Notes under the pieces: model-generated
Seen by the model: the letters and a program-made list of their open reading frames with translations, nothing else
Database searches by the model: none
Told to the model about the DNA's origin: nothing
Assembly (NCBI GenBank): GCA_019058365.1
Contig: JAHPZE010000001.1
Span: 192,001-256,000, forward strand
Length of the DNA: 64,000 bases
Source of the DNA: Promethearchaeota archaeon
Lineage (GTDB): Archaea; Asgardarchaeota; Lokiarchaeia; Sigyniarchaeales; SOKP01
Reading direction: 5' to 3'
Program-made: the position numbers and the translations under genes
In this document: positions 48,376 to 57,089 of the stretch, piece after piece
How the letters are laid out: every line of letters starts with the position of its first letter
How positions within the stretch are numbered: the stretch's first letter is position 1

Positions 48376-49683
48376 ATGCCCGAAGATTACCAGATTGCTT
48401 TAAACAAATTAAAAAGAATTTTACCCTTTGTTAATTCAGTTGCATTAATGGATGAAAGAGGCGAATTAGTTTATTCAACAGATAATTGGGATATAAAAGA
48501 AGATATGGTTAATCTAATATCTCTCTGGTCATCTATGAAACGTCAACCTATTGTAATTTCAGGAAAGGAATATTTAGTACGCACTTGTACAAGCGATAGA
48601 TTTGTAGCAAGCTCACCTAAAGGAGAAGGCCATATTGTAGGTGCTAAAGATGATGAGAGGACAATCATTACTCTTATTGAACCAGATGGGATTATTCCTT
48701 TTACTACTATGGAGATAGCTAGAATTTTAGCTTCATTAAAAGAAAAAGAACCTTACTTGGATAAGAGTATACAATTAGGAAAGAAAATCAAATTAATACG
48801 AGATGGATCCTCTAATAGTGAAAAAGTAAAGCAAAATAAACTTAATATTGATGTATTGCCTTTACAAAAACAAGATAAACCAGAATTAGATTTACCTTTC
48901 ACGGCTCGCCTTATGGCTTATTATCGAGCTCAAGAAGCTAAACACGATGATCCGTTAATTTTTGATCCTTTCGCAGAACGCCTCTCGGGTGATTTGAGTC
49001 CGTACTTGAATGATCATATACGGTTCTCTGAAATGGATTATCCGATCGTACGTTCATATTATATTGAAGAAGAGTTATTAACACCTTGGTGTAAAACAAA
49101 AGGAGAATCACAAATAGTAATGTTAGGAGCGGGGTTAGACACACGCGCGTATCGATTCAAACTCCTTCATAAAAATAAGCATACTCTTTTTGAAATCGAT
49201 TTTCCAAAAGTGATTCAATATAAAAATAAAATTTTAAAAGATGAAAAACCCTATTGCGACGTTGTACACTTATCTACTGATCTTTCCAAATCTAAATGGA
49301 TATCAATTTTGTTAAAAAGCGGATTTTCTAAAAATATTCCGACTTTTTGGATATTGGAGGGTCTCGCCTATTATATAGAAAAGCAAGATTTTACCTCTTT
49401 ACTCTTAAAAATAGCGGAGATAAGTATTGAAACCAGTCAGATTTTCACAGACATCATGCAATTATCAAGATGGTACTCTTTTCCATATACTTCAAATGGA
49501 ATTGTAGGTGATCCTTTTTCTAGGCATTTTAAATGGGGTATTGATATGAAAGTAGTTCAATCATTCTTTTCTGAATTTGGTTGGAATGTATCATGTTCTT
49601 TCGCTGACGATCATGATCAAGGTAGAAATGTGGGGCAGAAGGCGATGATTTTTATTCGTGGAGAAAGGGCTTCTAATATGTAG
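48376..49683 (+). CDS. Profilin-like domain fused to an LCM-family SAM-dependent methyltransferase
   Basis: aa ~1-125: VALMDERGELVYSTDNWDI..IVISGKEYLV..CTSDRFVA...GEGHIVGA. aa ~172-435: TARLMAYYRA.E, DPFAE, QIVMLGAGLDTRAYR, FEID, EGL.YY. Confidence 0.8.
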   Translation: MPEDYQIALNKLKRILPFVNSVALMDERGELVYSTDNWDIKEDMVNLISLWSSMKRQPIVISGKEYLVRTCTSDRFVASSPKGEGHIVGAKDDERTIITLIEPDGIIPFTTMEIARILASLKEKEPYLDKSIQLGKKIKLIRDGSSNSEKVKQNKLNIDVLPLQKQDKPELDLPFTARLMAYYRAQEAKHDDPLIFDPFAERLSGDLSPYLNDHIRFSEMDYPIVRSYYIEEELLTPWCKTKGESQIVMLGAGLDTRAYRFKLLHKNKHTLFEIDFPKVIQYKNKILKDEKPYCDVVHLSTDLSKSKWISILLKSGFSKNIPTFWILEGLAYYIEKQDFTSLLLKIAEISIETSQIFTDIMQLSRWYSFPYTSNGIVGDPFSRHFKWGIDMKVVQSFFSEFGWNVSCSFADDHDQGRNVGQKAMIFIRGERASNM

Positions 49684-53267: not shown

Positions 53268-54662
53268 ATGAGAAAAATAATCGCTAAGATGTTAATTCAC
53301 AAATCTGGGAATAATACGTTTATTTATGTTATTGCGATGGTATCAGGACTAAGCGGAATGTTATTTGGTTATGATACTGGTGTCATTTCTGGGGCTATTC
53401 TGTTTATCAAGCAAGAATATACTCTTTTACCATTTATACAGGGATTAGTTATTAGTGCTGTATTAATTGGAGCAATAATCGGAGCATTTATTGGTGGAAC
53501 GTTAGCAGATCGTTATGGACGAAGAAAAATGATTATTGTAGCAGCAATTATATTTACTGGGGGTGCCATTGGAACCTCATTAACACTAAATATAATTTTC
53601 TTGATCATTGGAAGAATAATTGTAGGAATTGCTATAGGGATGGCATCCTTTATTGCTCCACTCTATATTTCTGAAATGTCTCCACCAAGGATTAGAGGAT
53701 CATTAGTGTCCTTAAATCAATTATTTATTACTATAGGAATTGTTATATCTTACTTGGTGGATTATGCTTTTACTCCTATAAGTGGTTGGCGTTATATGCT
53801 TGGTTTAGCGGCTATTCCCTCACTTATATTATTAATTGCAATGACCTTTATGCCAAATAGCCCACGATGGCTAGTTAATAATAGAAAGATGGATAAAGCA
53901 CGTTCTACCTTGATTGAGATTCGAAGGACTAATAATATCAATAATGAACTCAATGAAATAATGACTAGCCTAGATAAGCAAAAAGGAGGGAGAAAAGAAC
54001 TGTTTAGTCCTTTAATAAAACCTGCAATGATTGTGGGTATATCATTAGCAATTTTCCAACAAGTTACTGGAATTAATACCGTGATATATTATGCTCCGAC
54101 GATTTTTGAATTTGCAGGATTTCAATCAGCTGCAGCTGCTATCTTTGCTACAATCATAGTTGGAATTGTGAATGTAGGCTTTACTCTTGTTGCGATATTT
54201 TTGTTGGATCGCGTCGGTCGGCGTAAATTATTGTTACTCGGTTTAGCTGGTATGAGTGGGATGCTCATAATGTTAGGGATAGTATTCTTTTTACCAAGTT
54301 TATTAAATCAATTAGGAACATTAGCTGCAATTGGTTTAATTTCTTATGTTGCCTTTTTTGCTATAGGGTTAGGACCAGTCTTTTGGTTATTAATCTCCGA
54401 AATATATCCTCTAAAAGTTAGAGGTCTTGCGATGAGCATTGTAACAGAGGCTAATTGGGGATCTAATTTAATCATTGCGTTAACCTTTTTAACTCTGATT
54501 CAATTATTGGGACGTGCAGGTACATTTTGGCTTTATGCTGTTGTAGGAATATTGGCATTAATCTTTACGTATGTTTATGTTCCAGAAACTAAGGGAAGAA
54601 CCTTAGAAGAAATTGAAGAACATTGGCGTGGTGGAAAACATCCACGAGAATTGGGGAGATGA
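53268..54662 (+). CDS. Sugar porter family MFS transporter (GalP/XylE-like)
   Basis: FGYDTGVISGA, DRYGRR, YISE..P..RG, QQVTGIN...YY, PETKG. Confidence 0.93.
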   Translation: MRKIIAKMLIHKSGNNTFIYVIAMVSGLSGMLFGYDTGVISGAILFIKQEYTLLPFIQGLVISAVLIGAIIGAFIGGTLADRYGRRKMIIVAAIIFTGGAIGTSLTLNIIFLIIGRIIVGIAIGMASFIAPLYISEMSPPRIRGSLVSLNQLFITIGIVISYLVDYAFTPISGWRYMLGLAAIPSLILLIAMTFMPNSPRWLVNNRKMDKARSTLIEIRRTNNINNELNEIMTSLDKQKGGRKELFSPLIKPAMIVGISLAIFQQVTGINTVIYYAPTIFEFAGFQSAAAAIFATIIVGIVNVGFTLVAIFLLDRVGRRKLLLLGLAGMSGMLIMLGIVFFLPSLLNQLGTLAAIGLISYVAFFAIGLGPVFWLLISEIYPLKVRGLAMSIVTEANWGSNLIIALTFLTLIQLLGRAGTFWLYAVVGILALIFTYVYVPETKGRTLEEIEEHWRGGKHPRELGR

Positions 54663-54668
54663 TATTTT

Positions 54669-57089
54669 ATGAATCAAAAAGAAGTATTGTATGATGGTGA
54701 GGCACCAGGACATCCTGGAAAAGATCCCAGTTGGACATCAAGTGCAAAAGATGGAATAGGAACATCTATATCTCGTGAAAGCTTAGTTTGGTTTACATTA
54801 TCTAATGGTATCGTTGATGAAGTATATTATCCTCGTATTGATCAAGCAAATATTCGAGATCTTCAATTTCTTATTTCTAATGGCATTGATCTTTTCGAAG
54901 AAGAGAAAATTGACTGTGATCATAAGATTTCAACGTTAGATGAAGGAGTTCCTGCATATAAGATTACAAATACATCACATAAAAGAAGATATACAATAGA
55001 AAAAACAATTCTAACTGATCCTAGAAGGGATGTACTCTTGTTAAAAGTAAAATTTACACCTTTAAAAGGAAATTTTGATGATTACCATCTTTATACAATT
55101 TTGAATCCTCATGTCAAAAACTTTGGTTATGGCAACGATAGCTGGGTGGGTGATTATAAAGGCATTCCCATGCTTTTTGCTCAGAGAGAAGATGTTGTTT
55201 TAGCATTAGCATGTTCTACACCATTTATTAAAATGAGCTGTGGATTTTATGGTATAAGTGATGGTTGGCAAGATATTAATAAAAATCATACCTTATCACA
55301 TCAATATTCCCGTGCTTCAAATGGAAATGTTGTTATAACAGGAGAAATTGATTTAAAAGCAAGTAATGGAAACTTTATTTTAGTCGTTGCATTCGGAAAT
55401 AATCCGGCAGAAGCAGGTCAACTTGCCCGTAGTACTTTGTTTAATGATATTGATCAAATAATTGAGGCTTATACCCTATCTTGGTTAGAATTTCAGCAAA
55501 AATGTATGAATTTAGGCCAAGTTGGAAAAAAAGGATTCAATATTTACCGGTTGAGTATTGTAGTCTTAAAGACTCATATGGATAAACGTCTTTCAGATGG
55601 CACAATAGCGAGTTTATCAATTCCTTGGGGATTCGCTAAAGGGGACGATGATTTAGGAGGGTATCACTTAGTGTGGCCTAGGGATCTTGTTGAAACTGCA
55701 GGTGGACTTCTTGCAGTGGGAGCTAATATAGAAGCTTTACATATTATGATTTATTTAATGAGTACTCAAAATGAAGATGGACATTGGCCTCAAAATATGT
55801 GGTTAGATGGAACTGAATATTGGCATGGAATACAAATGGACGAAACTGCTTTTCCAATATTACTTGCGTATGCTCTAAAAAAAAATGGGCAGCTTAAAAA
55901 GATCAATATTTGGCCTACTATAAAAAAGGCTGTGAGCTTTTTAGCATGTAATGGTCCAGTCTCTCAAGAAGACCGATGGGAAGAAGATCCAGGTTATTCT
56001 CCCTTCACTTTAGCAGTAGAAATTGTTGCTCTGCTCATTGCATCAGAATTTGCTAAAGAAGCAGGGGAATCGTTAATTGCTAAATATTTAACAGAAGTAG
56101 CGGACTATTGGAATTCTAATATCGAAAAATGGACTTATGTTAAATATTCACATCTCACCGAGAGACTGTATGTTGAAGGTTATTATGTTCGAATAAGTCC
56201 TCCTGATTTTTCAGATGCACCCTCTCCCAAGGATGGTTATGTCCCTATTAAAAATAGACCTCCTGGTGAAAATAGAGCTCTTTTTGAATATATTGTTAGT
56301 CCTGATGCATTAGCTTTGGTACGATTTGGATTACGTGCTGCTGATGACCCAAGAATCGTCAATACAGTAAAAGTTGTTGATTCTATGTTAAAAACAGAAA
56401 CTTCAACTGGTCCTGTATGGCATCGTTATAATAAAGATGGATATGGAGAACATTTAAATGGAGATCCTTTCGATGGTACTGGAATTGGTAGGGGGTGGCC
56501 TCTTTTAGCAGGTGAACGTGCCCATTATGAACTAGCGAAAGGAAATATTGATCGAGCAGAAAAGCTTTTAAAAGTAATGGAAATGCAAGTTGGTTCGGGA
56601 GGACTCATTCCCGAACAAATTTGGGATGCAGAAGATATACCTCATAAGAATTTATTTAACGGGCATCCTTCAGGTTCTGCTATGCCCTTAGTCTGGGCGC
56701 ATTCTGAATATGTAAAATTAGTGCGATCATTAGAAGACAACAATATTTTTGATATGCCGTTTCTAACCAAACAGAGATATGTAAAAGAAAATCATCCTTC
56801 AAATCTAAAAATATGGAAATATAATCATAAATGTTCTCAAATGGATGTAGGAAAGATCTTGAGAATTGAATTAAGAGTTCCAGCCAGAGTTAGATGGTCC
56901 ATTGATGATTGGAAGACAATTCAAGAATCCGAAACAATTGATACAGGTTTAGGTATCTATTATGTAGATTTACCGACTAAAGATTTGAGTGAACAAGTAA
57001 AGTTGAGTTTTACATTCCATTGGTTAGCTCAAGATAAATGGGAAAATATTAATTATGAAATCGAATTGACCAATAAGAGTTCTGATTAA
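54669..57089 (+). CDS. GH15 glucan 1,4-alpha-glucosidase (glucoamylase/glucodextranase type)
   Basis: EVYYP, ASLSIPWG, YHLVWPRD, QMDETA, WEE, GRGWPLL.GER, PEQIWD, SAMPLVWAH. Confidence 0.93.
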   Translation: MNQKEVLYDGEAPGHPGKDPSWTSSAKDGIGTSISRESLVWFTLSNGIVDEVYYPRIDQANIRDLQFLISNGIDLFEEEKIDCDHKISTLDEGVPAYKITNTSHKRRYTIEKTILTDPRRDVLLLKVKFTPLKGNFDDYHLYTILNPHVKNFGYGNDSWVGDYKGIPMLFAQREDVVLALACSTPFIKMSCGFYGISDGWQDINKNHTLSHQYSRASNGNVVITGEIDLKASNGNFILVVAFGNNPAEAGQLARSTLFNDIDQIIEAYTLSWLEFQQKCMNLGQVGKKGFNIYRLSIVVLKTHMDKRLSDGTIASLSIPWGFAKGDDDLGGYHLVWPRDLVETAGGLLAVGANIEALHIMIYLMSTQNEDGHWPQNMWLDGTEYWHGIQMDETAFPILLAYALKKNGQLKKINIWPTIKKAVSFLACNGPVSQEDRWEEDPGYSPFTLAVEIVALLIASEFAKEAGESLIAKYLTEVADYWNSNIEKWTYVKYSHLTERLYVEGYYVRISPPDFSDAPSPKDGYVPIKNRPPGENRALFEYIVSPDALALVRFGLRAADDPRIVNTVKVVDSMLKTETSTGPVWHRYNKDGYGEHLNGDPFDGTGIGRGWPLLAGERAHYELAKGNIDRAEKLLKVMEMQVGSGGLIPEQIWDAEDIPHKNLFNGHPSGSAMPLVWAHSEYVKLVRSLEDNNIFDMPFLTKQRYVKENHPSNLKIWKYNHKCSQMDVGKILRIELRVPARVRWSIDDWKTIQESETIDTGLGIYYVDLPTKDLSEQVKLSFTFHWLAQDKWENINYEIELTNKSSD

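What the first reader, a model, noticed from the sequence alone, without database searches (positions are those of the whole stretch)
48376..49683. Profilin-like domain fused to an LCM-type methyltransferase: a possible actin-directed modifying enzyme
Seen: one uninterrupted ORF. The first ~125 aa carry the pattern I recall for Lokiarchaeal profilins (A.....G..V..T.NWDI; I.I.G..Y.V...T..R.VA....G.GHI). A ~45-aa linker follows, then a complete leucine-carboxyl-methyltransferase-like domain (TA....RA.E, DPFA, LGAGLDTRAYR, EGL..Y). Known: Asgard profilins bind actin; eukaryotic actin is post-translationally modified (His73 by SETD3; N-terminus by NAA80, which works on profilin-actin); LCMT1 methylates a protein C-terminal carboxylate. 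Inference: the profilin domain may deliver actin or a lipid surface to the methyltransferase, or act as a regulatory sensor. I know of no description of this fusion. The actin-related protein in this window ends in Leu (PPNLL), which is suggestive only.
Basis: partly seen in the sequence, partly recalled or inferred. Interest (0 to 1): 0.85.

Follow-up and report, generated by a model that had tools for sequence, protein, structure and literature searches.

The report
Repurposed profilin fused to carboxyl methyltransferase
A Loki-type Asgard archaeon has a real, recurrent gene that joins a profilin domain (normally an actin binder) to an enzyme that methylates carboxyl groups, but the profilin's actin-gripping face looks rebuilt and the enzyme belongs to a bacterial small-acid-methylating branch, so it is probably an actin tool reused as an enzyme accessory rather than an actin-modifying enzyme.

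Summary
Observation confirmed. The 435-aa ORF joins a true profilin-fold domain (aa 1-122; Z 18.3 to Loki profilin-1, 17.8 to Odin profilin) through a disordered linker to an intact TIGR00027/LCM carboxyl methyltransferase. About 66 full-length homologs (44-90% identity) exist in Lokiarchaeia and Helarchaeota, and the fused profilin domains form one clade, so it is no artefact. It is patchy: 16 of 400 Asgard genomes.

The actin-modifying reading is weakly supported. The enzyme is closest to mycobacterial small-molecule carboxyl methyltransferases, not LCMT1. Its Asgard relatives work alone or with an unrelated helical domain. No actin gene lies near any fusion locus, the true Lokiactins end in Phe, and the inferred actin-C-terminus-binding site is rebuilt (Arg69 in 59/66 fusions, 0/145 other Asgard profilin domains). 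A pocket-side insert (SRW) tracks the fusion, and AlphaFold's pTM implies the domains pack together.

Best reading (0.55): a profilin domain co-opted as a docking or regulatory module of a non-actin carboxyl methyltransferase. I found no paper on it; this scan reported the fusion before in other genomes. New variant; interest 0.5.

The parts
48376..49683 (+). Whole ORF, 435 aa: profilin domain, linker, LCM/TIGR00027 carboxyl methyltransferase
48376..48741 (+). Profilin-fold domain, aa 1-122, from the Lokiarchaeial group of fused profilin domains
48580..48582 (+). Arg69, fusion-specific; inferred equivalent of human profilin Ile73, which contacts actin Phe375
   Evidence: 59/66 against 0/145; mapping by motif is inference
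48685..48714 (+). Fusion-specific DG[IV]IPF..E113 motif at the start of the last profilin helix, a region that contacts actin in canonical profilins
48742..48891 (+). Variable, disordered linker, aa 123-172
   Evidence: pLDDT under 50 for 124-171
48892..49674 (+). SAM-dependent carboxyl methyltransferase domain, aa 173-433
   Evidence: Z 27.4 to ML2640c, 23.4 to LCMT1
48901..48903 (+). Thr176, equivalent of ML2640c Thr20 (holds the substrate carboxylate)
   Evidence: alignment; PMC10193983
49051..49053 (+). Arg226, invariant; equivalent of ML2640c Arg90 and LCMT1 Arg73
49126..49134 (+). G251-A252-G253, SAM-binding motif I
49372..49374 (+). Tyr333, invariant; equivalent of ML2640c Tyr194 and LCMT1 Tyr203
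49465..49473 (+). S364-R365-W366, core of an insert of about 8 aa after strand beta5, found only in the profilin-fused clade

Best explanation
The protein is a SAM-dependent carboxyl methyltransferase: Thr176, Arg226 and Tyr333 hold a substrate carboxylate next to the SAM methyl group and a methyl ester forms (residues shown by alignment; chemistry inferred from tested relatives). Once, in a Lokiarchaeia ancestor, a member of an Asgard clade of these enzymes captured a profilin domain from a pool of paralogs that Lokiarchaeia also fuse to TrmB regulators, Rab-like GTPases, a sirtuin and short helical tails (shown). The captured domain kept its fold but swapped the residues that grip actin's C-terminus for a new conserved patch (L16, F18, R69, E102, I106-F109, E113), while the enzyme gained a pocket-side insert (residue changes shown; their position on the actin face is inferred). 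Most likely the domain folds back on the enzyme as a lid, docking or regulatory module (inferred), and the substrate is not actin, most probably a small carboxylic acid (inferred).
For: Enzyme type: TIGR00027 above cut-off; nearest structures ML2640c and Rv0731c, Z 26-27 and 25-28% identity, against LCMT1/PPM1 at Z 20-23 and 14-17%; both methylate small acids in vitro (PMC10193983); all landmark residues are kept. Swappable accessory: the enzyme clade occurs alone, or with an unrelated 150-aa helical domain at either end. One origin: fused profilin domains form one clade, SH-aLRT 99, quick tree. Mobile module. Rebuilt face: position 69 is L/V/I/F in 145/145 other Asgard profilin domains and R in 59/66 here. 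Relaxed but purifying selection: dN/dS 0.29-0.47, against 0.08-0.14 for the stand-alone Loki profilin. SRW insert in 70/70 fused and 0/29 helical-fused enzymes; four of five apparent exceptions are split or cut-off genes. AlphaFold2 pTM is 0.79, where independent domains would give about 0.57-0.65. No actin gene nearby; patchy spread, 16/400 genomes.
Against: No coordinates or error matrix were returned, so the in-cis packing rests on one pTM value and the surface used is unknown. The patch and the insert arose once, so their co-occurrence is a single event and could reflect a new external partner instead. The carboxylate-binding residues are shared with the protein enzyme LCMT1 and do not fix substrate size. 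Identity to ML2640c (28%) is below the 30% that Lin et al. used to collect the family. The invariant R216, R365 and W366 suggest one specific substrate, which could be a peptide. The profilin domain of the actin-linked TrmB fusion also evolves fast (dN/dS 0.23-0.50), so rate alone does not exclude actin binding. The mapping to human contact residues is by motif.
Confidence: 0.55

Rival explanations
1. One reading: the profilin domain binds monomeric actin and delivers it to the enzyme, which methylates a carboxyl group of an actin (C-terminus or side chain).
For: True profilin fold closest to actin-binding Loki and Odin profilins; a 48-aa flexible linker could reach; the LCMT1 Arg/Tyr dyad is present; the genome has six actin-family genes, some divergent, and one could have co-evolved with a changed face.
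Against: Inferred actin-contact positions are rebuilt; profilin grips actin's last residue; Lokiactins end in Phe; no actin neighbour in 16 loci at 1.5 kb or 14 loci at up to 6 kb, against 30/30 for the profilin-TrmB fusion; the enzyme clade does without profilin elsewhere; the fusion was found in only 4 of 53 other genomes of the genus.
Confidence: 0.08
2. The domain still binds an actin or a membrane lipid, as a signal or anchor that switches or places a small-molecule methyltransferase; actin is not the substrate.
For: Sister profilin domains sit on regulators, and the TrmB fusion lies beside an actin gene in 30/30 loci examined; K65, R75 and D104-G105 are largely kept; Asgard profilins bind PIP2 (PMC8410842).
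Against: The fusion-specific patch lies where actin's C-terminus is inferred to bind; no genomic link to actin.
Confidence: 0.15
3. It is a protein carboxyl methyltransferase for a non-actin target: the old Phe375 site, now with Arg69 and a hydrophobic patch, captures another protein, whose C-terminal carboxylate enters the private pocket (R216, R365, W366, K422).
For: Near-invariant clade-specific residues on both domains across 44% identity; LCM-fold relatives LCMT1/PPM1 do this chemistry; a sister domain is fused to a sirtuin-family enzyme.
Against: The tested nearest relatives act on small acids; no conserved neighbour names a target.
Confidence: 0.15
4. The profilin domain is a tolerated passenger that adds solubility or nothing.
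For: Higher dN/dS than the stand-alone profilin; a few split or truncated copies.
Against: Still under purifying selection; kept in about 66 divergent homologs, with new near-invariant residues.
Confidence: 0.07

Closest known systems
Stand-alone Asgard profilins: Loki profilin-1 (5YED/5YEE), Loki profilin-2 (5ZZB), Odin (5ZZA), Thor (7PBH), Heimdall (6YRR)
   Same: Same fold (Z 17.8-18.3, rmsd about 2), seven strands with the three-strand insert, NWD and G.GH motifs.
   Different: Fused to an enzyme; no Loki loop; Arg at position 69 and IIPF at the start of the last helix instead of the canonical residues; evolves faster; belongs with the fused paralogs in the tree.
OPCMT-like small-molecule carboxyl methyltransferases, ML2640c and Rv0731c (TIGR00027; Lin et al. 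2023, PMC10193983)
   Same: Nearest structures; Thr20/Tyr194 landmarks and all listed SAM residues kept; N-terminal helical subdomain present.
   Different: 25-28% identity; Asgard-restricted clade; extra profilin domain; private pocket residues and SRW insert; substrate untested.
LCMT1/PPM1 (PP2A C-terminal leucine methyltransferase) and TYW4
   Same: LCM fold and the Arg/Tyr carboxylate dyad.
   Different: 10-17% identity and lower Z; no profilin domain; no PP2A-like partner near the gene.
NAA80 acting on profilin-actin, and SETD3 (own knowledge; SETD3 also PMC6400499)
   Same: Concept only: an enzyme that modifies actin, in one case with profilin's help.
   Different: Unrelated folds and chemistry; there profilin is a separate protein.
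ProGel (profilin-gelsolin) of Thorarchaeota (own knowledge) and the general domain shuffling of Asgard signature proteins (bioRxiv 10.1101/2020.10.19.343400)
   Same: Asgard signature domains fused in lineage-restricted, patchy architectures, often with prokaryotic domains.
   Different: This pairing was not found described; the partner is an enzyme of bacterial type, not a cytoskeletal domain.

Membership tests
Profilin (Asgard type) | Profilin fold with three-strand insert, distinct from roadblock, longin and GAF | tested here: met
   Z 18.3 and 17.8 to Asgard profilins, roadblock at most 13.2
Profilin (Asgard type) | Sequence homology to characterised Asgard profilins | tested here: met
   Pfam PF00235 only weakly, in 11/66 members, best E 1.7e-5
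Profilin (Asgard type) | Conserved actin-contact residues (hydrophobic Ile73 equivalent; start of last helix) | tested here: not met
   R69 in 59/66 against hydrophobic in 145/145; IIPF at 106-109; mapping to human residues is by motif
Profilin (Asgard type) | Binds G-actin and slows polymerisation | not testable with these tools
   needs biochemistry; no profilin-actin prediction was run
Profilin (Asgard type) | PIP2 or polyproline binding | not tested
   known for some Asgard profilins
LCM superfamily carboxyl methyltransferases (PF04072) | Profile above cut-off, class I fold, intact SAM motif | tested here: met
   (116.7 bits against 22.3)
LCM superfamily carboxyl methyltransferases (PF04072) | Carboxylate-orienting Arg/Tyr and Thr | tested here: met
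   R226 and Y333 invariant, T176 at least 90%
TIGR00027 / OPCMT-like | TIGR00027 cut-off; Thr20 and Tyr/Phe194 landmarks; N-terminal helical subdomain | tested here: met
TIGR00027 / OPCMT-like | Over 30% identity to ML2640c (the paper's working limit) | tested here: not met
   28% over 243 aligned residues
TIGR00027 / OPCMT-like | Methyl-esterifies small rigid carboxylic acids | not testable with these tools
   enzyme assay needed
LCMT1/PPM1 orthologs | Closer to LCMT1/PPM1 than to bacterial LCM proteins | tested here: not met
   Z 23.4 and 16% against Z 27.4 and 28%; nearest Atlas clusters bacterial
LCMT1/PPM1 orthologs | Methylates a protein C-terminal leucine | not testable with these tools
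   no candidate target from gene context

The most novel reading that the evidence does not exclude
The profilin domain still captures an actin, or another specific protein, and hands it to the methyltransferase, giving Asgard archaea a profilin-guided protein carboxyl methylation, possibly of the cytoskeleton. Probability is for the actin version (0.08) plus part of the actin-as-switch version.
Probability: 0.12. Interest if true: 0.9.

Novelty: new variant of a known kind. Interest (0 to 1): 0.5.

Why it matters
Asgard profilins are described as small stand-alone actin regulators. This gene belongs to a wider pattern: Lokiarchaeia reuse profilin domains as modules on enzymes, GTPases and transcription regulators. 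That cautions against reading every profilin hit as cytoskeletal, and it gives a testable case of a eukaryotic-signature domain changing job, with named residues on both domains. If the actin reading were true, it would be an actin-directed modifying enzyme in a prokaryote; I know of none described. Both readings can be tested with one purified protein.

Tried and rejected
Complex prediction (one job): profilin domain plus methyltransferase domain plus SAM as separate chains gave 'no answer'; it is no evidence either way. I ran no further search on profilin plus actin, because solved look-alikes would make a pass uninformative. Inter-domain covariation on 66 sequences gave only noise. Expression: no RNA holder listed. 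Gene context: conserved only among four genomes of the same genus (radical SAM, DUF4184, EamA, Rce1-like genes); no recurrent partner beyond that. The sigma-70 scan found fewer sites than shuffles and does not suit archaea. The helical partner domain of sister enzymes found no family by Pfam, Atlas or homolog search. Literature: ten full-text searches found no description of the fusion (among them); Akil and Robinson 2018 was not read and Ponlachantra 2023 is not held, so a mention there is not excluded. Rejected: assembly artefact; roadblock or GAF identity for the N-domain; the Leu-ending actin as a clue; LCMT1 orthology. The enzyme tree is the quick tree (the careful search did not finish) and is midpoint-rooted, so no order of events between fused and unfused forms is claimed.

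Full report
Verdict. The fusion is real, recurrent and was not found in print, but the evidence points away from an actin-modifying enzyme. I rate it a new variant of a known kind, interest 0.5.

1. Observation. Window 48376-49683 (+) is one ORF of 435 aa. Residues 18-113 match Odin, Loki and Thor profilins in the PDB by sequence (profile search). The model of aa 1-125 (pLDDT 92) aligns best to Loki profilin-1 (Z 18.3) and Odin profilin (Z 17.8), then to eukaryotic profilins, above roadblock and GAF folds. Residues 124-171 are disordered. The rest is a complete LCM domain above the TIGR00027 cut-off. About 66 full-length homologs at 44-90% identity exist. Named records are Promethearchaeia (Lokiarchaeia) and Helarchaeota. 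A salt-marsh sample of another study carries the whole stretch in one gap-free contig. The fusion is patchy: 16 of 400 genomes of the phylum, and 4 of 53 other genomes of the genus (many of these genomes are incomplete).

2. The enzyme. The nearest solved structures are ML2640c and Rv0731c (Z 26-27, 25-28% identity), ahead of LCMT1, PPM1 and TYW4 (Z 20-23, 10-17%). Lin et al. 2023 (PMC10193983) showed that both methylate small carboxylic acids, using Thr20 and Tyr194. Through the alignment, their landmark residues map to T176, R184, R226, G251-G253, D275, D302-L303, E328-G329 and Y333, all conserved in at least 90% of the family. So the enzyme is intact and very likely methylates a carboxylate. 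The Arg/Tyr pair is shared with LCMT1 (PMC4678810), so it does not tell the size of the substrate. The same Asgard clade also occurs alone, or fused at either end to an unrelated helical domain of about 150 aa in Hod-, Thor-, Odin-, Heimdall- and Hermodarchaea. Bacterial LCM enzymes likewise carry TetR or glyoxalase domains. The accessory domain is therefore exchangeable.

3. The profilin domain. A profile search found the same domain fused to TrmB regulators, Rab-like GTPases, a sirtuin, LRR and coiled-coil proteins, and to a short helical tail. The helical-tail paralog of about 210 aa is present in 86 of 98 near-complete genomes of the class. This genome alone has four fused and at least two stand-alone profilin domains. 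The enzyme-fused domains form one clade (SH-aLRT 99) among the fused paralogs, apart from the stand-alone profilins (quick tree). They are under purifying but relaxed selection: dN/dS 0.29-0.47, against 0.08-0.14 for the stand-alone Loki profilin in the same genome pairs.

4. The actin face. In the eukaryotic complex, actin Phe375 contacts profilin I73, R74, H119, G121 and N124 (PMC5423778), and K69, S71 and K125 also bind actin (PMC1964790). The three-strand insert carries actin contacts in Loki profilin (PMC10933270). The human run K69-x-S-V-I73-R74 lines up with K-Y-S-V-I-D of Odin profilin; this mapping is my inference from the motif. The Ile73 position is L, V, I or F in all 145 other Asgard profilin domains I aligned, but Arg in 59 of 66 fusions. 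The start of the last helix reads DG[IV]IPF instead of GPRD or DGDAR. L16, F18, E102 and E113 are also fusion-specific. The site that holds actin's C-terminus thus appears to have been rebuilt for a different, constant partner.

5. A matching change in the enzyme. All 70 fused enzymes carry an insert with invariant R365-W366 and an invariant R216; none of 29 helical-fused relatives has the insert. Of five apparent exceptions, two have the profilin domain as the ORF just upstream, two are cut by contig ends, and one is N-truncated. By alignment these elements lie where ML2640c lines its substrate pocket (inference). AlphaFold2 gives the whole chain pTM 0.79; independent domains would give about 0.57-0.65, so the model places the profilin domain firmly on the enzyme. 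I could not see which surfaces touch. This co-occurrence is one evolutionary event, not many.

6. Context. No actin gene lies within 1.5 kb of 16 fusion loci or within up to 6 kb of 14. By contrast, the profilin-TrmB fusion has an actin gene beside it in 30 of 30 loci. The two Lokiactins of this genome end in Phe; the Leu-ending protein at 3655 is a divergent paralog, and Leu ends about 11% of long ORFs here.

7. Mechanism. Shown: fold, fusion, intact catalytic residues, single origin of the fused domain, rebuilt positions. Inferred: carboxyl methyl ester formation; folding back of the profilin domain as a lid, docking or regulatory module; a non-actin substrate, most likely a small acid (0.55). 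Rivals: actin or lipid as switch or anchor (0.15); a non-actin protein substrate (0.15); actin as substrate (0.08); passenger domain (0.07).

8. Novelty. Ten searches found no paper on the fusion. A survey of 256 Asgard profilins discusses only short N-terminal extensions in the passages I read (PMC8410842), and domain shuffling of Asgard signature proteins is known in general. This scan noted the same fusion in several other genomes. As far as the short notes show, what is added here is the rebuilt actin face, the clade-specific pocket insert, the exchangeable accessory domain and the sign of in-cis packing.

Noticed in passing
L002:646-1896 (-) and L103-L132; own genome C34:310346-311596: Profilin-TrmB fusion directly downstream of a Lokiactin gene; actin is adjacent in 30/30 loci, and the gene was matched in 47/161 genomes of the class. 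Candidate actin-sensing transcription regulator; already noted by this scan.
   Followed up: partly
L188:3001-4227 (+), protein P0135: Profilin domain fused to a Sir2-family deacylase, in one locus two genes from a second sirtuin: another profilin-enzyme fusion.
   Followed up: partly
proteins P0137, P0143, P0195, P0214: Rab/Ras-like small GTPases with a C-terminal profilin domain; the four domains form one clade.
   Followed up: partly
L003:1498-2133 (+) and L004:1210-1875 (-): Two paralogs of about 210-220 aa: profilin plus a conserved helical tail of about 55 aa of unknown function; near-universal in the family and the likely source pool of the fused domains.
   Followed up: partly
L028:946-2295 (+), protein P0086:3-152: Unnamed helical domain of about 150 aa, matched in 38/400 Asgard genomes, nearly always fused N- or C-terminally to the same methyltransferase clade; no Pfam or Atlas match.
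   Followed up: partly
window 3655-4776 (+): Divergent actin paralog (one of six actin-family genes), ending PPNLL, downstream of a PIG-L deacetylase gene.
   Followed up: partly
L191:1082-2391 and L192:1029-2352: Copies in which the profilin domain and the enzyme are two adjacent ORFs: true fission or assembly frameshift, not resolved.
   Followed up: partly
proteins P0231, P0243, P0247: Multi-winged-helix proteins (two with a weak GATOR1 NPRL3-like HTH hit) with a C-terminal profilin-like domain.
   Followed up: no
window 53268-57089 (+): Sugar-porter-like transporter followed by a glucoamylase-like gene, read from the sequence only.
   Followed up: no
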